DNA of 64,000 nucleotides from a virus (taxonomy: Duplodnaviria > Caudoviricetes), in IMG/VR virus record IMGVR_UViG_2974791771_000001, positions 1 to 64,000 of that record. The stretch is one strand, 5' to 3'. The notes below the pieces were generated by a model. It worked only from the letters and a program-made list of their open reading frames with translations, made no database searches and was not told where the DNA came from. The stretch's first letter is position 1; every line of letters begins with the position of its first letter. Both the position numbers and the translations under genes were made by a program. This document shows, in pieces, positions 49,595 through 60,265 of this stretch.

Positions 49595-50031
49595 TGAAGA
49601 AAACTGTTGCGGCGGTGTTGATTGCTGCGGTGGCCGGGTTGGGCTTGACGGCCTGCCACAGTGACGATGATTACGAGGATGTGAGCGCGGTCTGCGTCGA
49701 TCCCGCCACGAACGTCCGTCTCGATGATGACGAGTGTGACGACGATGATGGCCCTTCGGTGTGGTGGTACTACGGTGCCGGTGCTGCTGTTCCGGCTGTC
49801 GGGTATGCGGTGGCGAAGAACTCGGGGTCGTTCAAAAAACCTGCTCGTGCTCACATCCGGAAGGTGCCGCGCGTGGGTCAGGCGAAGCCTTCGGTGGTGA
49901 AGCCGCGTACGGCGTCGGCTCCGAAGCCCACGCAGAACAACAAGTCGTGGTTCGGTTCCAAGTCTTCGGGTTCGGGTTCGAAGTCGTCTTCTTCGGGTTC
50001 TCGGTCGGGAGGGTTCTCGCGTGGCCGCTGA
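49594..50031 (+). CDS. Lipoprotein with Ser/Gly-rich basic tail
   Basis: Lipobox LTAC; SSGSGSKSSSSGSRSGGFSRG. Confidence 0.75.
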   Translation: MKKTVAAVLIAAVAGLGLTACHSDDDYEDVSAVCVDPATNVRLDDDECDDDDGPSVWWYYGAGAAVPAVGYAVAKNSGSFKKPARAHIRKVPRVGQAKPSVVKPRTASAPKPTQNNKSWFGSKSSGSGSKSSSSGSRSGGFSRGR

Positions 50032-50941
50032 GCTAGTTGCCATGCGGGGCCTCCCCGCGTCAGGGAAGACCACCCGTGCACGGCAGATCGCGAAAGAGAC
50101 CGGCGCTGTTGTTGTGGGCCGGGACTTCGAACGCTTCCAGATGTTCGGCGAGTGGTGGACGGGCAAGCCTGAGCATGAGGATGCTGTCACGGTCGCCCTG
50201 AATGCCAAGGTGCGAGCCTTGCTGAAGGCGAATCAATCTGTGGTGGTTGACAACACGCACATTCAGGTCAGGTACCTGAAGGATTGGGCGAAGGTCGCTT
50301 CGGAGTGCGGGGCCACGTTCCGGATCGAAGATGTGAAGACTCCGCAGGATGTGTGCGAGGAACGCGACTTCTGGCGGGAGGGCGCGGGTGAACGGTTCGT
50401 CGGCCCTGAGGTGATTGCCCGGATGGCGAAGCAGATCAACTGGGGAATACCGAAGCCGGTAGCGCCCATCGTCGTTGAGCCCGTTGACCACAAGGTTGCC
50501 GAAGAGCTGATGCTTCCCGGCGCGATCATCGTGGACATCGACGGCACGCTCGCGCACATGACTGGCCGTAGCCCGTACGACTACAGCCGCGTCGGCGAAG
50601 ATCGGGTTGACCCCACCATCGCCAGAATGGTCCGGGAGTACGAACAACTCGGCTACGACATCATCGCGTGCTCGGGCCGGGACGACGAGTGCCGCACCAT
50701 GACTGTCGCATGGCTGCTCGCCAACGACATCCCGTTCCACAAGCTGCTCATGCGGCCCACCGACGCCAAGGATGCCAACGGCAACAAACTGCCCGACTGG
50801 ATCGTCAAGTACAACCTGTTCAACGAGAATGTGCGCGGCAAGTACGACGTGGAATTCGTTCTCGATGACCGCAACCAGGTTGTGGACATGTGGCGCAAGC
50901 TCGGCCTGAAGTGCTTGCAGGTTGCTCCCGGCGACTTCTGA
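50021..50941 (+). CDS. pnk: Polynucleotide 5'-kinase/3'-phosphatase (T4 PseT-like)
   Basis: P-loop GLPASGKTT; HAD DIDGT, SGR, DDR. Confidence 0.92.
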   Translation: MAAELVAMRGLPASGKTTRARQIAKETGAVVVGRDFERFQMFGEWWTGKPEHEDAVTVALNAKVRALLKANQSVVVDNTHIQVRYLKDWAKVASECGATFRIEDVKTPQDVCEERDFWREGAGERFVGPEVIARMAKQINWGIPKPVAPIVVEPVDHKVAEELMLPGAIIVDIDGTLAHMTGRSPYDYSRVGEDRVDPTIARMVREYEQLGYDIIACSGRDDECRTMTVAWLLANDIPFHKLLMRPTDAKDANGNKLPDWIVKYNLFNENVRGKYDVEFVLDDRNQVVDMWRKLGLKCLQVAPGDF

Positions 50942-51111
50942 TGTACGTCCCACCTGATCGTCCAGCACTCGAATGCCAAGCGTGCGGAACGGTATTGCAA
51001 GCCCTCACAGATGAGCAGGCCGCTGATGTCGCGCTCAATCCGTACAACTACATCGCCTTCTGTGCTCCGTGTAAGCGCAAGGGCTATCACATAGAACCAG
51101 GATTTCAATGA
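50941..51111 (+). CDS. Small Zn-finger protein
   Basis: CQAC...CAPC. Confidence 0.6.
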   Translation: MYVPPDRPALECQACGTVLQALTDEQAADVALNPYNYIAFCAPCKRKGYHIEPGFQ

Positions 51112-52427
51112 CCAACAGTCTCTCTGTTGTCGGCAGCAGCAACTACGCCGCACAGATCGTCCGCGTCCCCGCCACCTACCCGCTCGAAGGTCTCGACAAC
51201 CTCGTGGGCATCAAGGTTTTCAACAGCCAAATCCTCACGCAGAAGAACGAAGTCGAAGCGGGAGACCTCCGCATCTACTTCCCCGCAGAGGTTCGACTCT
51301 CCGACAAGTACCTGTCGGTCAACAACCTGTTCCGGGATCCGTTGCTCAACCGGGACAGCAAGGCCGCACCCGGCTACTTCGAAACCAACGGTCGAGTCAA
51401 GGCGATCAAGCTGCGCGGGCACCGTTCCGACGGCCTGCTGATGCCGCTCGATTCCCTGCTCGCATTCGGCGTTCGCAGTGAGGATTTGGTTGAGGGTGCC
51501 GTGTTCGACACGGTGAACGGGATTGAGATTTCCCGCAAGTATGAGGTGAAGACCTCGACGCCGGCCGACCCTTCCGCGAAGAAGGTGAAGAAGGCGTTCA
51601 AGCGGGTCACCACGAAGGTGTTCCCTGAGCACATCGACACCGATAACTTCTTCCGCAACCAGCATTTGCTTGACCCGTCGCGCGAGGTCATCATCACCCA
51701 GAAGCTTCACGGCACGAGCATTCGTGTGGGTCGAGTCCCGGTGCTGCGGGAGATCGGTCTGGTGGAGCGCATCTTCAACAAGGTGGGTGGCCTGTTCGGC
51801 ATCTCCACGCCGACTCACGCCTACGAGGTGGTGTGCGGTTCGCGGAAGGTCATCAAGGATGTGACGAACCCTCGTAGCCAGCACTACTACGGCACGGACA
51901 TCTGGTCGCAGTACGGCATTCAGATCGGTGACCTGATCCCTGAGGGCTTCATTGTGTACGGCGAGCTGGTCGGTTGGACGCCGGACGGCAAGCCGATCCA
52001 GAAGAACTACACCTACGATCTGCCGGTTGGTAAGCGCGAGCTGTACGTGTACCGGGTGGCTCGTGTGGATGTGAATGGCACGATGACTGATCTGTCGTGG
52101 GATGCGGTGCGCGAGTTCTGCGTTGAGCGCGGCCTGAAGCATGTGCCTGAGCTGTACCGGATCATCGAAGAGGATGAACTGTTCGGCGACAAGCTCGAAG
52201 ACCACGTGACGGCCCTGATGGACATTGCGTTCACCGACTACGCGGAAGACAACGTGCATCGGGATCCGCTGGTGCCGCTGTCCGATCCGAACACGGTCGA
52301 TGAGGGTGTCTGCATCCGCCAGGAACGTTCCGTTCCGACGATCCTCAAGGCGAAGTCGCCTGCGTTCCTTGAGCACGAAACCAAGCAGCTCGACACGGGC
52401 GAGGCCGACCTCGAAAGCGCAGCCTGA
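51108..52427 (+). CDS. rnl: RNA ligase, Rnl2/DRB0094-like
   Basis: Motif I TQKLHGTS, III YGELVG, IV EGVCIR, V LKAKS; N-terminal OB/tRNA-binding-like domain. Confidence 0.9.
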   Translation: MTNSLSVVGSSNYAAQIVRVPATYPLEGLDNLVGIKVFNSQILTQKNEVEAGDLRIYFPAEVRLSDKYLSVNNLFRDPLLNRDSKAAPGYFETNGRVKAIKLRGHRSDGLLMPLDSLLAFGVRSEDLVEGAVFDTVNGIEISRKYEVKTSTPADPSAKKVKKAFKRVTTKVFPEHIDTDNFFRNQHLLDPSREVIITQKLHGTSIRVGRVPVLREIGLVERIFNKVGGLFGISTPTHAYEVVCGSRKVIKDVTNPRSQHYYGTDIWSQYGIQIGDLIPEGFIVYGELVGWTPDGKPIQKNYTYDLPVGKRELYVYRVARVDVNGTMTDLSWDAVREFCVERGLKHVPELYRIIEEDELFGDKLEDHVTALMDIAFTDYAEDNVHRDPLVPLSDPNTVDEGVCIRQERSVPTILKAKSPAFLEHETKQLDTGEADLESAA

Positions 52428-52619
52428 ATGCAGAACGGACAATCCCAGTGTTACGTCGCTTTCCCTAGCGAGCACTTCGATGTGGAGTCCTTGCGCTTCG
52501 CGTATGACCAGCTCATTGGCATGGGCGTCCCCAGAACCCGGAAGCTCACCATCGAATCTGTACCCAAGGTGGGCGATGAGATGTGTGACGGAATCGCATT
52601 TGTGGAGGTAGTTCCATGA
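52428..52619 (+). CDS. Hypothetical protein
   Basis: Coupled ORF. Confidence 0.55.
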   Translation: MQNGQSQCYVAFPSEHFDVESLRFAYDQLIGMGVPRTRKLTIESVPKVGDEMCDGIAFVEVVP

Positions 52620-53467
52620 CAGTTCATCTCTATGCAGCCGACCTCACCGACAGGTCGAAACCACTCATCAACGTGCAACGCTTCCAGTTCCCTGGCGGCG
52701 AACAGCACCTCCACATGCCCGCGCTCATCGACGGCCACAACTACGAATGGGTGGCCGTAGTCCGGGGTGCCGACGCCAACGAGCTGGTGGCCGCTGGCCT
52801 GCTCTCGGACATCGCCTACCAGCGCGGCGAACCCTCATCTCTCCTGTTGCCGTATCTTCCGGCTGCACGAGCTGATCGGGGCCAGCCGTTCGCGCTCGAC
52901 ACCTACGCGAATGTCATTGGTGCGCTGAACTTCGATGTGGTCACCACGCTCGACGTGCACAGTCAGGTCGGCATTGACATCGAGTTCGGGGACTCGTATC
53001 ACGTGCACCTGTCGGCCACTCCCCTCGTTCTTGCGGCGGTGGAGCATCAGGACAAGTTTGATGCGGTGATCGCGCCGGACGCTGGCGCTCTTGACCGTGC
53101 GCGGTCTGTGGCCCTGGCCCTGCGGGTGCCCGTGTACAGCGGCGTGAAGGAACGGGACTTCGCGACCGGGAAGCTCACCAGCTTCTACTACTCGGGTCCG
53201 ACCAACGGCAATTTCCTTGTGGTCGATGACATCTGTGATGGCGGCGGCACGTTCGCCGGTTTCGCTGCGGTGTCGGGGATCCCTCGCGAGAACCTGTCGT
53301 TGTGGATCACGCATGGCATCTTCTCGAAGGGGTCTGCGTCGAATCTGTTCCGCAATTACAAGGCTGTGTATACGACGGATTCGCATCCGGGTTCGGCGAA
53401 TCTTCATGCGACTGTTCGTGTGCCGGTTGTGCCGCACATGTGGAAGCACGTAGCAGGAGGTCTGTGA
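52616..53467 (+). CDS. Ribose-phosphate pyrophosphokinase-like protein (candidate Adps of NARP1)
   Basis: FPGGEQH, LPYLPAARADR, DVHS, APDAGA, VVDDICDGGGTF. Confidence 0.85.
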   Translation: MTVHLYAADLTDRSKPLINVQRFQFPGGEQHLHMPALIDGHNYEWVAVVRGADANELVAAGLLSDIAYQRGEPSSLLLPYLPAARADRGQPFALDTYANVIGALNFDVVTTLDVHSQVGIDIEFGDSYHVHLSATPLVLAAVEHQDKFDAVIAPDAGALDRARSVALALRVPVYSGVKERDFATGKLTSFYYSGPTNGNFLVVDDICDGGGTFAGFAAVSGIPRENLSLWITHGIFSKGSASNLFRNYKAVYTTDSHPGSANLHATVRVPVVPHMWKHVAGGL

Positions 53468-53685
53468 TGGGTCGGATGCAAGTCAAGGATGCGGAGTCCA
53501 CCAAGCGCGTTCTTTCTATGGCCGACGATCAGTCGAAGTTGATCCTAACGGAAACGCTGGGATCTGGCGTTGCGGTCATAGAGGTTGCCGGTAGTTCCTA
53601 CAGTGCGTACGCCAGCATTGTGCTCGACAAAGAGTCCGCAGTCATTCTCGGTGAACGCCTCATCGAATTCGGAAGCCAACCCTGA
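53467..53685 (+). CDS. Hypothetical protein between the PRS-like and Nampt-like genes
   Basis: TGATG coupling. Confidence 0.6.
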   Translation: MGRMQVKDAESTKRVLSMADDQSKLILTETLGSGVAVIEVAGSSYSAYASIVLDKESAVILGERLIEFGSQP

Positions 53686-53693
53686 AAGGGACC

Positions 53694-55169
53694 ATGACCA
53701 AGTTTGCGCCCGTAGCGGCACTCTTCCAAACCGACGCCTACAAGCTCGGCCACATCCAGCAATACCAGCTCGCCGGAAACGTCACCCGCGTCTACAGCAA
53801 CTACACCAACCGCAAGAGCCGCATCCCCGGCGTCGACAACGTGGTGCACTTCGGCCTTCAGGCGTTCATCCAGAAGAACCTCATGGAAGCGTTTGAGCCG
53901 TTCTTTGAGTCCGATGAGGATGTTGTTGCCGAACTGTACGAAGAGCGCGTAGCGAGCATCCTGGGGCCGAACACGATCGGTTCCGATCACATCCGCGCCC
54001 TGCACCGACTCGGCTACCTGCCGCTGCGGTTCTGCGCGGTCCCGGAAGGCACCCTCGTGCCCATCCGGATCCCCACATTCACGGTGGAAAACACTCTGCC
54101 TGAGTTCTTCTGGCTGACCAACTACATCGAGACCGCGTTGTCGGCTGGCGTGTGGCAGGCGAGCACGTCCGCAACCATCGCCCGCGAGTACCGACAGATC
54201 CTCGACGTTGCGGCATGGGAGACGGGCAGCAGTTTCGATGCTGTCGACTTCCAGGTCCACGACTTCAGCTACCGGGGGATGAGTTCGAATGAGTCTGCCC
54301 AGGTTTCGGGTGCGGCGCACCTTCTTTCGTTCTCCGGGACAGACTCTCTCGTCGCTCTCGATTGGATTGACCGCTACTACGGAGGTTCGGATTACGTTGC
54401 GGCGTCGGTCCCCGCGACAGAGCACAGTGTCATGTGCACCGGCATTGCCAAGCTCGGTGAACAGGATATGTTCGCCAAGCTTCTCGACCTGTATCCGACC
54501 GGCATTGTGTCCATCGTCTCGGACACCTTCGACCTGTGGCGGGTACTGACTGAGTACCTTCCCGCGCTGAAGGACAAGGTTCTCGCCCGCGACGGCAAGC
54601 TGGTGATCCGTCCGGACTCGGGCGACCCGCAGAAGATCATCTGTGGCGACCCGGACGCCCCTGAGGGCAGCAACGAGTACCTGGGCGTGATCGGTCTGCT
54701 GGATCGCGTGTTCGGCTCCACCCCGAACAAGCTGGGCTACTACGAGCTGGACTCGCACGTCGGCATCATTTACGGCGATTCGATCACAACGGAGCGCGCT
54801 CAGGCCATCGTTGACGATCTCGCTTCGCAGAACTACGCCAGCACCAACGTGGTGTTCGGCGTGGGCAGCTTCACTTACCAGTACAACACCCGCGACACCT
54901 TCGGCTCGGCGCTGAAGGCTACGTGGGCTGAGGTGGACGGTGAGGGCGTGAACCTGCTCAAGGACCCCATCACTGACGACGGCACGAAGAAGTCGGCTAC
55001 GGGCCGTCTGGCGGTCGATTTGGATGGTGATGGTGAGTGGACGCTGATTGAGAAGGCCAGCCAGGACGAAGAGGCACTGAGCCTGCTTCAGCCTGTGTGG
55101 GAGAACGGCGAGTTCGTCACGCGTCAGACCTTCCAGGACGTGAGGGAAACGCTCGCACTCTGGGGGTGA
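53694..55169 (+). CDS. Nicotinamide phosphoribosyltransferase-like protein (candidate Namat of NARP1)
   Basis: TDAYKLGH, HDFSYRG, ATEHSV, SIVSDTFD, RPDSGDP, YGDSIT, KKSATG. Confidence 0.92.
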   Translation: MTKFAPVAALFQTDAYKLGHIQQYQLAGNVTRVYSNYTNRKSRIPGVDNVVHFGLQAFIQKNLMEAFEPFFESDEDVVAELYEERVASILGPNTIGSDHIRALHRLGYLPLRFCAVPEGTLVPIRIPTFTVENTLPEFFWLTNYIETALSAGVWQASTSATIAREYRQILDVAAWETGSSFDAVDFQVHDFSYRGMSSNESAQVSGAAHLLSFSGTDSLVALDWIDRYYGGSDYVAASVPATEHSVMCTGIAKLGEQDMFAKLLDLYPTGIVSIVSDTFDLWRVLTEYLPALKDKVLARDGKLVIRPDSGDPQKIICGDPDAPEGSNEYLGVIGLLDRVFGSTPNKLGYYELDSHVGIIYGDSITTERAQAIVDDLASQNYASTNVVFGVGSFTYQYNTRDTFGSALKATWAEVDGEGVNLLKDPITDDGTKKSATGRLAVDLDGDGEWTLIEKASQDEEALSLLQPVWENGEFVTRQTFQDVRETLALWG

Positions 55170-55174
55170 CCTGA

Positions 55175-55561
55175 TTGGCGATCGACTACACCAAACCTGA
55201 GCGCACGAAAATCTCGTACAAGAAGATTCGTGTGCCGAACAGGTCGATGGCCCCACGCTTCGAGGCAATCAAGCCGTGCCCGAAGTGTGGGGCCTGGCGG
55301 GTCCACTGGATGCGTGAACCCAACCCGGATGTGCCCAACCTCGTCAACTTCTACGGCGAGTTTGTGTGCAGGGCCGACGATCCCGACGCTGAACGCATCA
55401 TCAAAGAGAACCGTCTTGAACGAGAGATAGTCGGGTGGGGAATGGTGCGCACAGTCCGCACAGTCTATGACGAGTCAGTCCGACCCGATCGTGACGACGA
55501 ACGCGGCTTCGAGGTGATCCGCCAATGCGTTGACTGCAAACACGAATGGGGAGAAATCTGA
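55175..55561 (+). CDS. Hypothetical Zn-ribbon protein
   Basis: CPKC..H, CVDC..W. Confidence 0.6.
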   Translation: MAIDYTKPERTKISYKKIRVPNRSMAPRFEAIKPCPKCGAWRVHWMREPNPDVPNLVNFYGEFVCRADDPDAERIIKENRLEREIVGWGMVRTVRTVYDESVRPDRDDERGFEVIRQCVDCKHEWGEI

Positions 55562-56391
55562 ACACAACCAGACAGATCGCATACGACAACCTGATGATGC
55601 TCGGCGTAGCCGGATCGCAGCTCTACGGCACCAACCTGGACAACGGCGACAACGACCAGATGGGCGTCTGCCTAGAGCCACCCGCCTACGTGACCGGCCT
55701 GTTCACCTTCGAGCAGTACCAGTACCATTCCGCCGGCAAGGATACTCGTTCCGGCGCAGACGATCTCGACCTCACTATCTACAGTCTGCGCAAGTGGGCG
55801 CGACTCGCAGCAGCAGGCAATCCCACGGTACTCCTGCTGGGTTTCACGCCGAAGCGACTCCTGCTGCACGACAGCGTGGATGGCCGAATCCTTCGAAACC
55901 ACATGGACAAGTTCATGTCCCGCCAAGCCGCAGGCAAGTTCTATGGCTACCTGGAATCGCAGCGCAAACAGATGCTCGGTCTCACCGGACGCAAGCACAG
56001 CAATCGTCCAGAACTCATCGAGCAGTACGGCTTCGACACCAAGTTCGCCTACCACGCAGTGCGACTCGGAATGCAAGGCGTCGAGTATCTGACCACCGGG
56101 CACATGACGCTGCCGATGCGCGACGAGGAACGCAACTACCTCATCGACATCCGGCAAGGCCGCGAGTCCTTCGAAGATGTGGTGACCGTCATCAACCTGT
56201 ACCAAGGGTTGCTGCTCAAACTGATGCGCTCCACTGATCTGCCGCCGCGTGCGGACTACGACTGGATCAACTCGTGGCTCACCGACACCTACATTACTCA
56301 CTGGGAACGCGAGGGGGTGGGTACTGACCTCTTGGCTAGACGAAGCTTCGGCAAGTCGATTCATAGGGCGTCACATCCGAACCCTGCGTAG
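55546..56391 (+). CDS. Pol-beta superfamily nucleotidyltransferase (RlaP/YcgL-like)
   Basis: GSQLYG..DNDQMG; GNPTVL; KFAYHAVRL. Confidence 0.85.
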   Translation: MGRNLNTTRQIAYDNLMMLGVAGSQLYGTNLDNGDNDQMGVCLEPPAYVTGLFTFEQYQYHSAGKDTRSGADDLDLTIYSLRKWARLAAAGNPTVLLLGFTPKRLLLHDSVDGRILRNHMDKFMSRQAAGKFYGYLESQRKQMLGLTGRKHSNRPELIEQYGFDTKFAYHAVRLGMQGVEYLTTGHMTLPMRDEERNYLIDIRQGRESFEDVVTVINLYQGLLLKLMRSTDLPPRADYDWINSWLTDTYITHWEREGVGTDLLARRSFGKSIHRASHPNPA

Positions 56392-56572
56392 ATGGCGGCA
56401 AGCACGGATCGTCGTGGCCCGCCACACCAAGTACGGCTACGAGTACGACAAGCAATCACTCCGTGCGGCGAAACTCCGCATGGCTCAACGCCGACTGATC
56501 GAGAAGGAAAACAACGGTGGACGACCATTCAAGTACGCCCCCAAGCCCGGAGACATGGATCCCCTCTTCTGA
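56249..56572 (+). CDS. MerR-like HTH protein (start uncertain, near 56320)
   Basis: ASRFIGRHIRTLRRWR..YEYDKQSL. Confidence 0.6.
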   Translation: MRTTTGSTRGSPTPTLLTGNARGWVLTSWLDEASASRFIGRHIRTLRRWRQARIVVARHTKYGYEYDKQSLRAAKLRMAQRRLIEKENNGGRPFKYAPKPGDMDPLF

Positions 56573-56717
56573 CTACGACCGTGCAGTGCACATTGTGGCC
56601 GAATCGGTCGCGGGTCGAGAGCCCACGGCCGACGATCTGAACCGGGCTGAGAAGCTGATCGCAGTGTTCTACAGTCTGGTGGAATCGCGGCTAATACCGT
56701 GTCCCCCCGGGGAGTAA
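56517..56717 (+). CDS. Hypothetical protein
   Basis: ORF track; start uncertain. Confidence 0.45.
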   Translation: MDDHSSTPPSPETWIPSSDYDRAVHIVAESVAGREPTADDLNRAEKLIAVFYSLVESRLIPCPPGE

Positions 56718-56780
56718 TGTTGTAAGTGAATCGGGGTTGAGAGAGCGCCCAAGACATTGAACGGCGTTCTTCACCCTGGA

Positions 56781-56847
56781 CTGATCGTCAGATGGGACAT
56801 CTGCAGAGGTTTTGTAGGGTGCGCGGGTTCGAGTCCCGCCGATCAGA
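56781..56847 (+). ncRNA. tRNA-like element without a canonical anticodon arm
   Basis: CTGATCG/CGATCAG 7-bp acceptor; GCGGG-TTCGAGT-CCCGC T arm; CAGATG/CATCTG hairpin. Confidence 0.6.
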
Positions 56848-56855
56848 CGGGCGCA

Positions 56856-56959
56856 GATGCGTAGATTGTGGTTACTTCACTAATTGGATATGCAGGTTCA
56901 AGTCCTGCCGTCGGGGTGTAAAGTTACCCGACGTTTGTTCCACGATCGACCAAGTTCAC
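56856..56959 (+). ncRNA. Y-RNA-like unit A1 (T-arm containing)
   Basis: GATGCGTAG..GTTACTTC 5' motif; GCAGG-TTCAAGT-CCTGC; CGTCGGG/CCCGACG; 3' CAAGTTCAC. Confidence 0.7.
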
Positions 56960-56979
56960 TCGCGCCAACAACCACCCCA

Positions 56980-57042
56980 GATGCGAAGGCTGCACAGTTA
57001 CTTCAATTGGATGAAACGCACACTGTGTGCCATCCAGTTCCC
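56980..57042 (+). ncRNA. Y-RNA-like unit B1 (short)
   Basis: GATGCGAAG..GTTACTTCAA..GATGAAAC..CAGTTCCC. Confidence 0.65.
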
Positions 57043-57064
57043 TGGGGTTACATCTTCACGTTCA

Positions 57065-57247
57065 GATGCGTAGAGACGTTGGTTACTTCCATTTTAAGGA
57101 CGAGGTTGCGGGTTCGAATCCCGCCTGCGCTATGTTTACCCGAAGGTAGGGCCTGGCATAAAGGCCAGTGGTGGGGTTCGAATCCCCGGCTGTGACGGTA
57201 GCTCAATTGGCAGAGCGCGTAAAAACACCAACACTCGGCAAGTTCCC
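57065..57247 (+). ncRNA. Y-RNA-like unit A2 (YrlA-like permuted tRNA mimic with two T arms)
   Basis: GATGCGTAG..GTTACTTC; T arms at 57108-57124 and 57173-57187; D arm GCTC-AATTGGCA-GAGC after the T arm; 3' CAAGTTCCC. Confidence 0.75.
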
Positions 57248-57270
57248 TGAACGATCAAACATTCCGCCGT

Positions 57271-57339
57271 GATGCGAAGCAAGAACGTTACTTCAACTGC
57301 TGATAGATGAAACCCACACGTTCATGCGCCACAGTTCAC
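57271..57339 (+). ncRNA. Y-RNA-like unit B2 (short)
   Basis: GATGCGAAG..GTTACTTCAA..GATGAAAC..CAGTTCAC; GAACGT/ACGTTC stem. Confidence 0.65.
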
Positions 57340-57371
57340 ACGGCACAATTCAACACACAGGAGCAGAAGGA

Positions 57372-58970
57372 ATGTCGCGCTACAACACCGCCACCAAGGC
57401 CCGACCCGCACAAAAGTCGAGCGCCATCAAGGCAGGTACGAAGCCCAAAACCAACCCACAGGGTGGAACCGGATTCAAGCGCGGCGACGCCAAGTCCGAA
57501 CTGTTCCTTTCCGCTGCAACCTCATTCATGCAGCCCAAATTCTACGAAACCGAGAACGATCTCCGCACGCGACAGCGCAAGCTCATCGCCAAGGTGGCCG
57601 TCTCCGACCCGGAGTGGACCTTCGAGTTCCTGACATGGCTCCGCACCGAAGGCAACCTGCGCACCGGGTCGCTCACCCTGGCCGCTGACGCCGTTTATGA
57701 GCGCCTGAAGGCGGGTAGGTACGAGCACGGCTGGAACCGTGCGATCATCTCCACGGTCCTGCGCCGGCCGGACGAGCCTGGCGAAATGCTTGCCTACTGG
57801 ACCAGCAACTACGGTCGCAACGTGCCGATCTCGGTCAAGCGTGGCATCGCGGATGTCATCGAGGGACAGTACAACGAGCGCAACTTTCTGAAGTACGACA
57901 GTGCCTCTCGCGCCTTCCGGTTCGGTGATGTGATCGAGCTGACCCATCCGAAGATGACGGGCAGCCGGGGTGATCTCGCCTCGTATGCGATCACTGTGGG
58001 TAAGGGCCGTGACGCCGAGATTCCTGATTCTCTGCCGATGATTCGAGAGAATCGCTCACTCCGCGCCACGGGCCTGAGCCCGAAGGTTCGCAAGTTGATC
58101 GCGGATCGAGGTGGCGACCTCTCCCAGGTTCTTGCTGCTGCTGGTATGACGTGGGAAGACATCCCCTCACTCGTCAACGGCCCCTGGACCCCCGAACTGT
58201 GGGAAGCCGCCATCCCCAACATGGGAGTCATGGCGCTCATGCGCAACCTCCGCAACTTCGACCAGGTCGGCATCTCCAAGCAAGCCGCAAAGATGGTCCG
58301 AGACAAACTGTCCGACCGTGAAGCCGTCCTCAAGTCCCGCATCCTTCCCCTCCGCGCACTCAGCGCCTACAAGGCCGTCAGCAACTCCCGCTGGCACGGC
58401 GCACTCGAAGACGCGGTGGACATCACCCTGGACAACGTTCCCGCCCTGAAGGGCCGCACGCTGATCCTCGTGGACTGCTCGGGATCGATGTTCTTCAGCA
58501 ACGGCACCGACCTGAGCTACGCGGAGTCGGCAGCCGTGTTCGGCACCGCGCTCGCCGCCAAGGCTGACAATGCGACTCTCGTGCACTACGGGTCGAACTC
58601 GCGTGAGGTCAAGGTGCCTCGTGGAGCTTCGGTGTTGGAGATGGCCCGCTCGGTGCACAGCATGGGTGGTACGGCCACCGCAGAGGCGATCCAGGCCCAC
58701 TACAACGGCCACGATCGAGTGATCCTGCTGACCGACGAGCAGCACAATGGTGGAGGCTACGGATGGGGCTCACGCTACGTGTCGGCGAGCCCTGGCGACT
58801 ATGTGCCCAAGCACATCCCGCTCATCACCTTCAACCTCGCCGGATACAAACTCGGCGGCGTCAAAGACGAACCCAACCGGCTCACCTTCTCGTCCCTCTC
58901 GGACAGTGCATGGAAGCTGGTCGACATGTTCGGCAACGGCGCAACCGGATGGCCCTGGGAGGCTAAGTGA
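57372..58970 (+). CDS. rsr: Ro60/Rsr TROVE-domain RNA-binding protein with vWA domain
   Basis: ELFL...FYE, RTEGNLRT, MGVMALMRNLRNF, SRILPLR, MIDAS DCSGS, LTDEQ. Confidence 0.92.
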   Translation: MSRYNTATKARPAQKSSAIKAGTKPKTNPQGGTGFKRGDAKSELFLSAATSFMQPKFYETENDLRTRQRKLIAKVAVSDPEWTFEFLTWLRTEGNLRTGSLTLAADAVYERLKAGRYEHGWNRAIISTVLRRPDEPGEMLAYWTSNYGRNVPISVKRGIADVIEGQYNERNFLKYDSASRAFRFGDVIELTHPKMTGSRGDLASYAITVGKGRDAEIPDSLPMIRENRSLRATGLSPKVRKLIADRGGDLSQVLAAAGMTWEDIPSLVNGPWTPELWEAAIPNMGVMALMRNLRNFDQVGISKQAAKMVRDKLSDREAVLKSRILPLRALSAYKAVSNSRWHGALEDAVDITLDNVPALKGRTLILVDCSGSMFFSNGTDLSYAESAAVFGTALAAKADNATLVHYGSNSREVKVPRGASVLEMARSVHSMGGTATAEAIQAHYNGHDRVILLTDEQHNGGGYGWGSRYVSASPGDYVPKHIPLITFNLAGYKLGGVKDEPNRLTFSSLSDSAWKLVDMFGNGATGWPWEAK

Positions 58971-59045
58971 TCGCAGCACTCATCGCATGGAACATCATCG
59001 CAGCCATCGTCGTAATCGGCGGCGCACTCACCCTCGCAAAAGTCT

Positions 59046-59762
59046 TTGAGTGAGCTGCACGATGCCGCGCTGAACTACCTGTACGAAGGATTCAAAGTCT
59101 TCCCGCTATGGCCTGGCGGGAAAACACCACTCATCAAACACGGCCTGCTCGAAGCGACGGACGACCCGGCCATTGTGGACGAATGGTGGGGACGCTGCCC
59201 GCAGGCAAACATTGGGGTGAGGGTGCCGGAACGAGTTGTAGTCATCGACATAGACCCCCGCTCTGGGGGCACACTCGACCAGCTCGGACCAATCCCACGA
59301 ACACGCACAGCAGCAACAGGTGGCGGCGGATGGCATCTCCTATTCAGGCATGTTGGACGAGCACGAGGAAAGCTAGATGATGCCCGTGGTATCGACATCA
59401 AAACTAACAGCGGCTATATCGTTGGTGCGCCAAGCGTTCACGAGTCTGGCCGACGCTATCGCTGGACTGATCGAGGCCCTATCGCGGACCTTCCGGCATC
59501 CTTGCTCCGTCGGGTATCCCCTGCTCCCCCGCAGGTGGTGTGGGACGACCCTGGTGTGGGATCCACCAAGGGATTGGTTGCCACTGTCGCGGATGCGGTT
59601 GAGGGCGAACGGAACCACAAATTCTTCTGGGCTGCGTGTCGGGCCTATCAAGAGGGGGCTGATGCTGAGTTGATGGGCGCGTTGGTAAATGCTGCTCGTT
59701 CGATTGGGTTGACTGAGCGTGAGATTGGGTTGTCTCTGCGTTCCGCTCAGGCCCGCGTATGA
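59046..59762 (+). CDS. Bifunctional DNA primase/polymerase (Prim-Pol)
   Basis: VFPLWPGGKTP, ANIG, VVIDIDPR, GGGWHLLF, GYIVGAPS. Confidence 0.9.
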   Translation: MSELHDAALNYLYEGFKVFPLWPGGKTPLIKHGLLEATDDPAIVDEWWGRCPQANIGVRVPERVVVIDIDPRSGGTLDQLGPIPRTRTAATGGGGWHLLFRHVGRARGKLDDARGIDIKTNSGYIVGAPSVHESGRRYRWTDRGPIADLPASLLRRVSPAPPQVVWDDPGVGSTKGLVATVADAVEGERNHKFFWAACRAYQEGADAELMGALVNAARSIGLTEREIGLSLRSAQARV

Positions 59763-59981: not shown

Positions 59982-60118
59982 CGGCTGATAGTCCAATGGA
60001 GCGGTCCTCACATATCGAACTAGCGGGCGTGCACGCCGACGGCTAGCGAATTTCTGTGAAGGGTCCAGGACGCCCCAAATGGTGGAGGAAATGCGGGTTC
60101 GAATCCCGCGAGGCCGAC
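59982..60118 (+). ncRNA. tRNA-like RNA with about 70-nt structured insertion in the D loop
   Basis: CGGCT/GGCCG acceptor-like; GTCC/GGAC D stem; GCGGG-TTCGAAT-CCCGC; anticodon unclear. Confidence 0.5.
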
Positions 60119-60191
60119 CGTGCCCGACTGTGCACGTAAACAGTCCGCAGACGACAATCGGCAGGAACACTGCGGTATCAAAAGTTCCCAC

Positions 60192-60265
60192 CCCATGTAG
60201 CGTTGGTGTAGAGAGCACACTGGTGTGCAAAGCCAGAGGCGTGGGTGCAATTCCTGCACGTGTAC
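60192..60265 (+). tRNA. tRNA-Cys(GCA), degenerate acceptor and D arm
   Basis: CTGGT-GTGCAAA-GCCAG; T loop TGCAATT. Confidence 0.55.

What the first reader, a model, noticed from the sequence alone, without database searches (positions are those of the whole stretch)
57065..57247. Unit A2 is a circularly permuted, doubled tRNA mimic with Lys-like and Met-like anticodon loops
Seen order: TCC-ATTTTAA-GGA (TTT anticodon-like), T arm (57108-57124), a TTACC-CGAA-GGTAG hairpin, GGCCT-GGCATAA-AGGCC (CAT anticodon-like), a second T arm (57173-57187), then a perfect D arm TA-GCTC-AATTGGCA-GAGC placed AFTER the T arm. T-then-D order is the YrlA signature. YrlA normally lacks a free anticodon loop, yet this unit displays two. 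Inference: possible bait for anticodon nucleases that cut tRNA-Lys(UUU) or tRNA-Met/fMet (PrrC, MazF-mt9 or VapC types).
Basis: partly seen in the sequence, partly recalled or inferred. Interest (0 to 1): 0.75.

Follow-up and report, generated by a model that had tools for sequence, protein, structure and literature searches.

The report
Phage Y RNA with extra T-arm
This is a known kind of tRNA-imitating "Y RNA" that partners a phage Ro60 protein; this one phage has an extra, partly tRNA-like piece (a second T arm) inserted into it, and nothing so far shows that the piece acts as a decoy for tRNA-cutting enzymes.

Summary
The described elements are all present at the stated coordinates. Unit A2 (full extent 57060-57252, + strand) is a YrlA-type Y RNA. 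It has a Ro60-binding-type stem carrying a circularly permuted tRNA-like core (V hairpin, T arm, acceptor-stem analogue "AS", D arm). It lies 120 nt upstream of a phage rsr (Ro60/TROVE) gene in a Gordonia phage close to Trax/Neville.

A covariance model built here from 24 relatives scores A2 at 81 bits. The family structure is backed by compensatory changes and by a 64/65 Levitt-pair (15:48) covariation.

The "Lys-like" loop is the family's ordinary V hairpin. It is anticodon-arm-shaped in about a third of units. Its central triplet is free (19 different triplets) and reads GCU, not UUU, in Trax.

The "Met-like" hairpin and second T arm lie in a 74-nt replacement of the normally 12-30-nt AS hairpin. 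A2 is the only such case among 95 distinct T-plus-D Y units, and the insertion is absent from Trax/Neville. No donor sequence was found, there is no second D arm, the linker is non-canonical, and the hairpin has an ambiguous pairing register.

Best reading: a lineage-specific, tRNA-part-like expansion of a variable region. The anticodon-nuclease-bait idea is unsupported but not excluded. Other agents of this scan have reported phage Ro60/Y RNA arrays on other genomes.

The parts
57060..57065 (+). 5' strand of the terminal stem of unit A2; pairs with 57247-57252
   Evidence: Perfect 6-bp complement seen in the sequence and in every fold. The equivalent helix covaries in the family, with 8 of 10 pairs changed on both sides.
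57065..57073 (+). Conserved 5' motif GAUGCG(U/A)AG. It is the counterpart of the GNCGAA-type motif proposed to contact Rsr/Ro60.
   Evidence: Invariant in 24/24 aligned relatives and repeated at the start of all four units of the array. The role in Ro60 binding is inferred from Chen et al. 2014 (PMC4201824).
57073..57089 (+). Inner stem 5' strand (pairs with 57228-57236) followed by the invariant GUUACUUC box (57082-57089)
   Evidence: Alignment A2 and pair counts: helix 2 has 6 pairs changed on both sides. R1 alignment.
57086..57102 (+). Stem 57086-57090 / 57098-57102 (4 of 5 pairs; clean core 57088-57090 / 57098-57100); loop 57091-57097.
   Evidence: Family feature 'V' of YrlA (PMC4201824). 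The inner pairs covary. The 5-7-5-5 geometry holds in 29/83 units, with U at loop position 2 in 25/29 and 19 different central triplets. Positions 57093-57094 are the only differences from Trax in 57040-57125.
57103..57107 (+). 5-nt linker (variable-loop analogue). Its last base, U57107, is the '48' partner of D-loop A57206.
   Evidence: 15:48 covariation across 65 distinct units: A:U 26, G:C 38, G:U 1.
57108..57124 (+). T arm 1, the family's conserved T stem-loop
   Evidence: Rfam T-arm hit. R1 alignment. 100% paired with 3 covarying pairs in the family. Identical in Trax.
57125..57198 (+). Expanded acceptor-stem analogue (AS): 74 nt here against 12-30 nt in relatives. Only about 3 base pairs remain at its base (57125-57127 with 57196-57198).
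   Evidence: The T-to-D spacer is 76 nt here. It is 14-32 nt in the 94 other distinct Y units, and 83-88 nt in three rows that are tandem real tRNAs. It is 48 nt longer than in Trax. No copy elsewhere in the phage and no match in 50,697 phage records.
57136..57149 (+). Hairpin a (5-bp stem, 4-nt loop) inside the insertion
   Evidence: Seen in the sequence. Ensemble probability is only about 0.17; a longer alternative hairpin is preferred. It shares the 8-mer UUACCCGA with the AS of unit A1 (shuffle p about 0.02).
57150..57166 (+). The competing register is 57152-57167 with a 6-nt loop.
   Evidence: Energies -9.0 against -7.9 kcal/mol in isolation. In context the probabilities are 0.15 against 0.83. 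It aligns loosely with the GCAA-capped tip of the Trax AS.
57172..57188 (+). T arm 2, preceded by a 5-nt linker 57167-57171 that lacks the family's conserved G-U-Y
   Evidence: R1 recognises only 57173-57187 within the insertion (11 bits). The 13-nt core is identical to T arm 1. Linker consensus.
57199..57216 (+). UA dinucleotide (U8-A9 analogue) and D arm (4-bp stem, 8-nt loop with GG)
   Evidence: Invariant in 24/24 relatives. Matched by Rfam YrlA and by R1.
57217..57252 (+). 3' strand of the Y RNA: joiner, inner-stem complement (57228-57236), conserved AGUUCC box (57241-57246), terminal-stem complement (57247-57252)
   Evidence: R1 alignment, covariation, repeat families D8/D9.
57372..58970 (+). 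rsr: Ro60-like protein (TROVE + vWA), the presumed protein partner
   Evidence: Pfam TROVE E 3.4e-16 and VWA_2. 90.5% identical to the 'Ro-like RNA binding protein' of Trax and Neville.

Best explanation
Unit A2 is a YrlA-class Y RNA of a Gordonia phage.

Its paired 5' and 3' ends carry the conserved GAUGCG(U/A)AG / AGUUC boxes and form the handle for the phage's own Ro60 (Rsr) protein. The apical part folds into a circularly permuted tRNA-like core: V hairpin, 5-nt linker, T arm 1, acceptor-stem analogue (AS), UA, D arm. This core presents a tRNA elbow to tRNA-recognising host factors.

In this one phage lineage the AS is the most length-variable part of YrlA RNAs. Here it has been replaced by a 74-nt branched insertion built from tRNA-like parts: a small hairpin, a 5-bp/7-nt hairpin, a 5-nt linker and a second T arm.

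I read this as a recent rearrangement among T-arm-bearing sequences. It is tolerated because it protrudes from the end of the acceptor-like arm. T arm 1, not T arm 2, remains the partner of the single D arm. The two 'anticodon-like' loops are by-products of tRNA ancestry and geometry, not mimics of tRNA-Lys or tRNA-Met.

Shown: family membership, structure, uniqueness of the insertion, gene context.
Inferred: Rsr binding, co-transcription with rsr, tolerance and neutrality of the insertion.
For: Identity as a Y RNA.
- Rfam YrlA hit, E 1e-4.
- Model R1 gives 81 bits, full length.
- It lies on the same strand as rsr and 120 nt upstream of it.
- Full-length R1 hits lie upstream of rsr in VanLee, BRock, GiJojo, Quantum, Frankenweenie and Alice.
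- The 5' signature recurs on 20 viral and 58 metagenome contigs.

Structure.
- 85.9% of cells are paired against 64.9% in shuffles.
- All 7 AS pairs and 3 T-arm pairs change on both sides.
- The 15:48 tertiary pair covaries in 64/65 units.

Insertion is lineage-specific.
- The T-to-D spacer is 76 nt here and 14-32 nt in the 94 other distinct Y units.
- It is absent from Trax/Neville.
- No other contig has T-T-D within one unit of this family.

T arm 1 is the working arm.
- Its flanks are 100% identical to Trax over 57040-57125 except for two loop bases. Neighbouring genes are 87-93% identical.
- Its linker ends in U, pairing with A15 of the D loop. The T2 linker ends in G.

AS and apical regions are the fast-evolving parts of the whole array.

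Literature.
- YrlA AS length varies, and YrlA may derive from dimeric tRNAs (10.1101/312249).
- A phage Ro60 binds two upstream Y-like RNAs and host PNPase (PMC12135203).
Against: - No expression or processing data: no RNA run holds the locus.
- The only read support is one contig that may be the source assembly.
- The minimum-free-energy fold pairs T arm 1 with T arm 2 in a 16-bp duplex. That fold is 11.8 kcal/mol better than the fold with separate T hairpins. It would abolish the tRNA-like core, so the insertion may not be harmless.
- The 7-bp AS stem that covaries in relatives is degenerate here, and also in Trax (4 of 7 pairs).
- With a single genome carrying the insertion there is no covariation evidence for or against any fold of it.
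- Neutrality is an argument from absence.
- The Rfam score is below the curated threshold.
Confidence: 0.6

Rival explanations
1. Anticodon-nuclease bait. The exposed UUU and CAU loops mimic tRNA-Lys(UUU) and tRNA-Met/fMet anticodon loops. They would soak up or be cut by host anticodon nucleases (PrrC, MazF-mt9, VapC types) and so protect host or phage tRNAs.
For: - The neighbourhood is rich in tRNA-damage functions: Pnkp (kinase + HAD phosphatase, E 3.5e-51), RNA ligase (E 1.9e-16), an RlaP nucleotidyltransferase, and 6-8 tRNA genes.
- The V loop has an anticodon-loop framework: U at position 2 and purine-A at positions 6-7.
- Its central triplet is the only thing that differs from Trax in an 86-nt block. 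That fits a rapidly retargeted triplet.
Against: - The triplet shows no preference for known nuclease targets. There are 19 different triplets in 29 units, and Trax has GCU.
- The V stem has 3 clean pairs.
- Hairpin b has G-G at the Y32-U33 positions and a preferred alternative register that pairs the C of CAU.
- Hairpin b exists in one genome only.
- Anticodon nucleases such as PrrC depend on tRNA modifications and body contacts (background knowledge), which cannot be assumed here.
- No cleavage or competition data exist.
Confidence: 0.07
2. Structure-breaking duplication or switch. T arm 2 pairs with T arm 1 into a roughly 22-bp rod, destroying the tRNA elbow. A2 would then be a decaying paralogue, or a two-state RNA whose tRNA-like face is masked until something, such as a helicase, a modification enzyme or RNase III, resolves the rod.
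For: - The free MFE is -76.5 kcal/mol with the T1:T2 duplex. It is -64.7 kcal/mol with T1, T2 and D forced as hairpins.
- The same duplex appears in the centroid structure.
- The UUCGAA loop core is palindromic, so the pairing is continuous.
Against: - Thermodynamic folding routinely mis-predicts tRNA-like domains that are stabilised by tertiary contacts and modification.
- T arm 1 would fold co-transcriptionally, 64 nt before T arm 2 is made.
- All other parts of A2 remain under strong purifying selection relative to Trax. That argues against a dead gene.
- A2 is the only unit of this array with both T and D arms.
Confidence: 0.15
3. Nested degenerate tRNA acting as a processing signal. The insertion is a decayed tRNA-like element. 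Its T arm 2 and weak acceptor pairing recruit RNase P, RNase Z or the CCA-adding enzyme. A2 would then be split into two halves that stay together on Rsr, as happens to M. smegmatis YrlA at its 7-bp AS.
For: - From 57128 to 57195 the order and spacing follow a tRNA plan: 7 nt, UU, small hairpin, 1 nt, 5-bp/7-nt hairpin, 5 nt, T arm, 7 nt.
- ARAGORN at 70% threshold calls a 78-nt 'tRNA-?' at 57119-57196.
- M. smegmatis YrlA is cut by RNase P and receives CCA (PMC4201824).
- A compact tRNA-like element already heads this array at 56781-56846.
Against: - There is no call at default ARAGORN or Rfam tRNA thresholds.
- The best acceptor pairing is 4 Watson-Crick pairs plus 1 G-U of 7, and it overlaps the 3' strand of T arm 1.
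- The D-like hairpin has a 4-nt loop.
- No sequence similarity was found to any tRNA or unit of the phage outside the T loop.
Confidence: 0.12
4. The region encodes small proteins, as annotated in the Trax and Neville records (gp90-93, 'hypothetical protein'), and the RNA-like features are incidental.
For: Mechanical ORFs overlap the region (56792-57073, 56884-57195). The relatives' GenBank records annotate four small CDS there.
Against: - ORF boundaries are not conserved between the window and Trax.
- Differences between the two phages include a 14-nt indel in unit A1, which is not a multiple of 3, and compensatory stem changes.
- R1 scores are 81 and 41 bits.
- The RNA structure covaries across 24 diverse contigs.
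Confidence: 0.01

Closest known systems
YrlA (Y RNA-like A; Rfam RF02553) of Salmonella Typhimurium, Mycobacterium smegmatis and mycobacteriophages (Chen et al. 2014, PMC4201824; structure PDB 6CU1, 10.1101/312249)
   Same: - It is encoded next to, and on the same strand as, an Ro60/Rsr gene.
- It has the T arm, AS and D arm order.
- It has the UA joiner, the D-loop GG, the T-loop UUCGAAU and a pyrimidine ending the variable linker with 15:48 covariation.
- It has a conserved purine-rich CG(A/U)A motif near the 5' end.
- Several Y RNAs lie upstream of rsr, as with YrlA and YrlB in M. smegmatis.
   Different: - The Rfam score is only 31.5 bits against a threshold of 69.
- The Ro-binding handle is longer and carries its own boxes, GAUGCG(U/A)AG and GUUACUUC.
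- The V region is a discrete anticodon-arm-like hairpin. [quoted passage not shown] It is a 74-nt branched insertion containing a second T arm.
A2 orthologue in Gordonia phages Trax and Neville (unannotated RNA under gp91-93; L001:4363-4527)
   Same: Same position in a five-element array (tRNA-like leader, A1, B1, A2, B2) before rsr. It is identical in sequence over the handle, V stem, T arm 1, D arm and 3' strand. R1 gives 81.6 bits.
   Different: - Its AS is a 26-nt irregular hairpin capped by GCAA. It has no hairpin a and no second T arm.
- Its V loop reads AUGCUAA instead of AUUUUAA.
Yrl1/Yrl2 of Thermus phage phiLo with phage Ro60 (PMC12135203)
   Same: Phage-encoded Ro60 with Y-like RNAs just upstream. 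In that system, binding of the RNAs to Ro60 and assembly with host PNPase were shown experimentally. It is the best functional precedent.
   Different: The phage and host are unrelated. Those RNAs were identified by a CGAA motif and a stem, and no doubled T arm was described. No sequence comparison was made here.
Tandem (dimeric) tRNA transcripts
   Same: R1 positions for V hairpin, linker and T arm align onto the anticodon arm, variable loop and T arm of real phage tRNAs. The D-arm positions align onto the next tRNA. This fits the proposed origin of YrlA from dimeric tRNAs. The A2 insertion looks like a third, degenerate tRNA body between the two.
   Different: A2 has no acceptor ends and no functional anticodon context. 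It is closed by a Ro-type handle. tRNA finders do not call it at default settings.

Membership tests
YrlA-type Y RNA (Chen et al. 2014; Rfam RF02553) | Encoded within 4 kb of an Ro60/Rsr (TROVE) gene, on the same strand | tested here: met
   The unit ends at 57252 and rsr starts at 57372, both on the + strand. TROVE E 3.4e-16.
YrlA-type Y RNA (Chen et al. 2014; Rfam RF02553) | Near-invariant T stem-loop followed by a D stem-loop (permuted order), with tRNA-like tertiary nucleotides: T-loop UUCGAAU, D-loop GG, UA joiner, Y48 with 15:48 covariation | tested here: met
   The 15:48 pair is A:U in A2 and covaries in 64/65 family units.
YrlA-type Y RNA (Chen et al. 2014; Rfam RF02553) | A single stem-loop (AS, acceptor-stem analogue) between the T and D arms | tested here: not met
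   It is replaced by 74 nt holding two hairpins and a second T arm. Only about 3 pairs remain at the base. Relatives have 12-30 nt with a covarying 7-bp stem.
YrlA-type Y RNA (Chen et al. 2014; Rfam RF02553) | GNCGAAN0-1G motif near the 5' end (proposed Rsr contact) | tested here: inconclusive
   A2 has GAUGCGUAG (CGUA, not CGAA). The B units have GCGAAG. The box is invariant in this clade but is not a literal match.
YrlA-type Y RNA (Chen et al. 2014; Rfam RF02553) | Score at or above the Rfam gathering threshold (69 bits) | tested here: not met
   31.5 bits, E 1e-4. All actinophage examples checked are also below threshold, at 30-47 bits. The clade-specific model R1 gives 81 bits.
YrlA-type Y RNA (Chen et al. 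2014; Rfam RF02553) | Bound by Rsr/Ro60 in vivo; modified by TruB and DusA | not testable with these tools
   No RNA-seq or RIP data; no RNA holder is listed.
Transfer RNA (for the insertion 57119-57198) | Cloverleaf with a 7-bp acceptor stem, a D arm, an anticodon arm with U33, and a T arm, detectable by ARAGORN or Rfam RF00005 | tested here: not met
   No call at default settings. At 70% threshold there is only a 'tRNA-?' with a 4-base anticodon and a poor acceptor stem. G replaces U33.
Anticodon-nuclease decoy / tRNA-Lys or tRNA-Met mimic | Conserved anticodon identity (UUU or CAU) in an anticodon stem-loop, kept among relatives | tested here: not met
   Trax has GCU. There are 19 triplets among 29 units. 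The CAU hairpin is present in one genome only.
Anticodon-nuclease decoy / tRNA-Lys or tRNA-Met mimic | Cleavage by, or inhibition of, an anticodon nuclease | not testable with these tools
   This needs biochemistry or phage-host genetics.

The most novel reading that the evidence does not exclude
A2 is a bivalent tRNA mimic. Besides the canonical T1/D elbow bound to the Ro60 handle, the insertion displays a second, free T arm and an anticodon-arm-shaped hairpin. One Ro60-Y RNP could then engage two tRNA-recognising proteins at once. Examples would be a T-arm or elbow reader such as TruB, TrmA, RNase P or the CCA-adding enzyme, or a tRNA-targeting defence nuclease. More broadly, the freely changing triplet in the V loop of this Y RNA family, which is the only change from Trax in an 86-nt invariant block, could be a retargetable specificity element.
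Probability: 0.1. Interest if true: 0.7.

Novelty: new variant of a known kind. Interest (0 to 1): 0.3.

Why it matters
If the reading is right, this is one more phage YrlA-type Y RNA, a class described in 2014 and found repeatedly in this scan. It has an unusual but probably incidental expansion.

Three things are useful.
1. It shows that the acceptor-stem analogue of YrlA can absorb a whole tRNA-sized, T-arm-bearing insertion. This is a natural experiment on what the Ro60-Y RNA particle tolerates.
2. The family data gathered here (about 95 distinct T-plus-D units, near-perfect 15:48 covariation, and an anticodon-arm-shaped V hairpin in a third of units) give concrete support to the idea that YrlA RNAs descend from tandem tRNAs.
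3. It flags annotation errors. Y RNA arrays are annotated as small 'hypothetical proteins' in Trax and Neville. Y RNA 5' halves are annotated as tRNA genes in VanLee, GiJojo and Frankenweenie.

Only if the second T arm or the variable triplets proved functional in phage-host conflict would this become a notable finding.

Tried and rejected
- **Donor of the insertion.** There is no second copy in the 76.8-kb phage genome. blastn of 57125-57198 against 50,697 phage records at E<=1 gave no match. Local alignment to every tRNA and Y unit of the phage found nothing significant outside the T loop.
- **Other doubled units.** A specific T-T-D pattern found nothing in IMG/VR. A generic T-T-D pattern gave 108 viral loci and at least 120 bacterial loci. 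On inspection these are ordinary tRNAs immediately followed by a separate T-AS-D module, or tandem tRNAs. They are not two T arms within one Y unit, so the scan did not discriminate.
- **In-silico re-permutation.** Units were rebuilt as AS 3' half, D arm, V hairpin, T arm, AS 5' half and run through ARAGORN. It called 38/65 as tRNAs, including A2 as 'Lys(ttt)'. Controls with a shuffled V hairpin (25/65) or unrelated sequence in its place (31/65) were called almost as often. I do not use this as evidence that V is an anticodon arm.
- **Expression.** No RNA holder is listed for the locus.
- **Read support.** Laying three runs found only one 76,851-nt contig, identical to the window and possibly its source. 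Two other runs from the same study held nothing.
- **Promoter and terminator scan** of 56200-59200: nothing above shuffles.
- **V loop pairing.** I looked by eye for pairing of the V loop with the post-D joiner. The window allows 5 pairs, but Trax does not keep them, so I rejected it.
- **Acceptor stem for a nested tRNA.** I looked by eye; only weak G-U-rich pairing with a 2-nt offset was found.
Full report
**Observation.**
- A small hairpin with a 7-nt loop: core 57088-57100, loop 57091-57097.
- A canonical T arm at 57108-57124.
- A 5-bp/4-nt hairpin at 57136-57149.
- A 5-bp/7-nt hairpin at 57150-57166.
- A second T arm: core 57173-57187.
- UA plus a canonical D arm at 57199-57216.

ARAGORN and Rfam at curated thresholds find nothing here. 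They find only true tRNAs at 60.2-62.2 kb. At a relaxed threshold Rfam's YrlA model matches 57084-57247 end to end (31.5 bits, gathering score 69, E 1e-4). It places 68 nt where the model has a 9-nt variable hairpin between the T and D arms. So the 'T then D' observation is real.

**Context.** The window is a 76.8-kb Gordonia phage. It is about 80% identical over this region to phages Trax and Neville (Nevillevirus). A2 lies in a gene-free stretch of about 600 nt. Upstream is an RlaP-family nucleotidyltransferase (55546-56391). Downstream is an Ro60-like gene with TROVE and vWA domains (57372-58970). Further upstream are Pnkp, an RNA ligase, a PRS-like gene and a Nampt-like gene. Downstream are a primase-polymerase and the tRNA cluster. 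The stretch holds a compact tRNA-like leader (56781-56846) and four units that share 5' and 3' boxes. In the Trax and Neville records this stretch is annotated as four small hypothetical proteins.

**The family.** The 5' signature of the unit (GAUGCG[A/U]AG, a short stem strand, GUUACUUC, then a T loop) recurs on 20 IMG/VR contigs and 58 metagenome contigs. Twenty-four distinct relatives align well. The hand-drawn structure has a terminal stem, an inner stem, a V hairpin, a T arm, a 7-bp AS hairpin and a D arm. It is strongly supported.
- 85.9% of cells are paired, against 64.9% in shuffles and 39-44% when partners are slid.
- Covariation score is 0.568 against 0.176.
- All 7 AS pairs and 3 T-arm pairs change on both sides.
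- The D arm is invariant.

A covariance model built from this alignment (R1) scores A2 at 81 bits (E 3e-20), full length, again with 68 nt inserted in the AS. It finds full-length units just upstream of rsr in VanLee, BRock, GiJojo, Quantum, Frankenweenie and mycobacteriophage Alice. It gives 136 hits over all loci. The tRNA 'Levitt' tertiary pair also covaries almost perfectly. This is the pair between D-loop position 15 and the last linker base before the T arm. Across 65 distinct units it is A:U in 26, G:C in 38 and G:U in 1. This matches what Chen et al. 2014 reported for YrlA (PMC4201824). A2 is therefore a member of the YrlA-type Y RNAs. That class was already reported in 254 bacteria and 22 phages.

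**The 'Lys-like' loop.** This hairpin is the 'V' stem-loop of YrlA. Among 83 distinct units, 29 have exactly the tRNA geometry, and A2 and Trax are among them. The geometry is a 5-bp stem, a 7-nt loop and a 5-nt linker before the T arm. In those 29:
- loop position 2 is U in 25;
- position 6 is a purine in 26;
- position 7 is A in 25;
- the central triplet takes 19 different values.

R1's V-linker-T segment also aligns onto the anticodon arm, variable loop and T arm of genuine phage tRNAs. Annotators have called the 5' halves of three such Y RNAs as tRNA genes. So the loop really is anticodon-loop-shaped, but this is a property of the subfamily and not of A2.

Its triplet is UUU here and GCU in Trax. 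These two bases (57093-57094) are the only differences from Trax in 57040-57125. There is no conserved Lys identity. In A2 the stem has only 3 clean pairs.

**The insertion.** One search gives 98 distinct rows with both a T and a D arm. In 94 of them the T-to-D spacer is 14-32 nt. Three rows at 83-88 nt are tandem real tRNAs, not Y units. A2 is at 76 nt. Trax and Neville have a 26-nt irregular GCAA-capped hairpin instead.

The 74 nt (57125-57198) read as follows: about 11 nt, hairpin a, hairpin b, a 5-nt linker, T arm 2, 10 nt. Hairpin b plus linker plus T arm 2 repeats the family's 5-7-5-5 module, which is also the geometry of the 3' two-thirds of a tRNA. From 57128 to 57195 the whole piece follows a reduced tRNA plan.

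It is not a convincing tRNA or tRNA-core copy, for these reasons.
- There is no default ARAGORN or Rfam call. A call appears only at 70% threshold, with a poor acceptor stem that overlaps T arm 1.
- The loop starts G-G where tRNAs and the V loops have Y-U.
- The linker lacks the invariant G-U-Y and ends in G, which cannot make the family's 15:48 pair with A57206.
- R1 sees only T arm 2 in it.
- Hairpin b competes with a register that has a 6-nt loop, and the ensemble prefers that register 0.83 to 0.15.
- There is no second D arm.

No donor was found in the phage, in 50,697 phage records or among the phage's tRNAs. One hint of local sequence exchange exists. The AS of units A1 and A2 share an 8-mer in this phage, and a different 9-mer in Trax (shuffle p about 0.02 and 0.002).

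**Selection pattern.** Flanking genes are 87-93% identical to Trax. The Y RNA cores show runs of 53-70 identical bases. These runs are broken only at the AS and apical regions and at the V triplet. The cores are under purifying selection, while the AS and apical parts turn over by indels. This agrees with the published view that AS, AC and variable regions of YrlA vary in size while the elbow is conserved (10.1101/312249).

**Folding.** The unconstrained MFE (-76.5 kcal/mol; z = -2.65 against shuffles for a slightly different window) pairs T arm 1 with T arm 2 over 16 continuous base pairs. This is possible because the UUCGAA loop core is palindromic. Forcing T1, T2 and D to be hairpins costs 11.8 kcal/mol. 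Thermodynamic models ignore tRNA tertiary contacts, modification and co-transcriptional order. I therefore treat this as a real rival (a masked or damaged tRNA-like core) and not as the default.

**Mechanism (best reading, confidence 0.6).**
- The handle binds the phage Rsr. This is inferred from YrlA biology and from Thermus phage phiLo, whose Ro60 binds two upstream Y-like RNAs and assembles with host PNPase (PMC12135203).
- The T1/D elbow presents a tRNA-like face to host tRNA-binding factors (inferred).
- The insertion is a recent tRNA-part-like expansion of the most plastic arm, probably produced by recombination among T-arm-bearing sequences, and it is tolerated.

**Comparison and novelty.** The closest known things are YrlA (Rfam RF02553), the A2 orthologue of Trax and Neville, the phiLo Yrl RNAs, and dimeric tRNA transcripts. 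Dimeric tRNAs are the proposed ancestor of YrlA. Of the defining YrlA features, A2 meets the Ro60 linkage, the T-then-D order and the tertiary nucleotides. It fails 'single AS hairpin' and the Rfam threshold. I file it as a new variant of a known kind.

Other agents of this scan have reported many phage Ro60/Y RNA arrays. Those notes are leads, not evidence. The finding is real, but the exciting part of its interpretation is unsupported. Interest 0.3.

Noticed in passing
window 56781-56846: A compact tRNA-like element heads the array: a 7-bp acceptor-type stem plus a T arm, with a reduced interior. Compared with Trax, the acceptor stem carries compensatory changes on both strands while the interior is replaced. 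It may be an RNase P/Z punctuation signal for the Y RNA precursor.
   Followed up: partly
window 56848-56981 (unit A1): A second YrlA-like unit. It is a full-length R1 match (41 bits, E 2e-9) with a T arm and a 6-7-bp AS hairpin, but the D arm is deleted: 17 model positions are replaced by 1 nt. A2 is therefore the only unit in this array with both T and D arms.
   Followed up: partly
window 56978-57050 and 57268-57345 (units B1, B2): Two short units share the same 5' and 3' boxes but have no T or D arm. They resemble YrlB. B1 is almost identical to Trax, while the apical loop of B2 is replaced.
   Followed up: no
window 56909-56934 vs 57125-57198; L001 (Trax) A1 vs A2 AS: Within each phage the AS regions of A1 and A2 share a short exact word: an 8-mer in this phage and a different 9-mer in Trax (shuffle p about 0.02 and 0.002). 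Nothing is shared across the two phages. This suggests gene conversion, or a shared loop motif, inside each array.
   Followed up: partly
window 57093-57094: The central two bases of the V loop (UU here, GC in Trax) are the only differences in an 86-nt block, while neighbouring genes are 87-93% identical. Across the family the loop frame is conserved and the central triplet is hypervariable.
   Followed up: partly
L004:2204-2275 (VanLee), L005:1269-1343 (GiJojo), L007:1245-1335 (Frankenweenie): GenBank 'tRNA-Arg(tct)', 'tRNA-Arg(cct)' and 'tRNA-Pro(tgg)' lie inside full-length R1 Y RNA matches just upstream of rsr (100, 73 and 65 bits). They are probably the 5' halves of Y RNAs mis-called as tRNAs.
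   Followed up: partly
L001:3818-4509 (Trax gp90-93) and the same genes in Neville: Four annotated 'hypothetical protein' CDS overlap the Y RNA array. No RNA genes are annotated there.
   Followed up: no
window 60092-60109 and 60120-60195: An orphan T arm, nearly identical to T arm 1, sits upstream of the tRNA cluster. A structured stretch follows and ends in the Y-unit 3' box AAGUUCC. This may be a further Y-like or tRNA-like element. Trax has tRNA-His near this position.
   Followed up: no
L088-L315 (e.g. L103, L105, L126, L132, L110, L111, L113): Many phage and bacterial contigs carry a complete tRNA followed within about 20 nt by a short T-AS-D permuted module. Some carry tandem runs of such modules. 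These arrangements fit a tRNA-dimer origin of YrlA-like RNAs.
   Followed up: no
window 50021-55169: Pnkp (kinase + HAD phosphatase), an RNA ligase with an N-terminal OB domain, a PRS-like gene and a Nampt-like gene lie co-oriented upstream of the Y RNA/Ro60 locus. This looks like an RNA-repair plus NAD-salvage island.
   Followed up: partly
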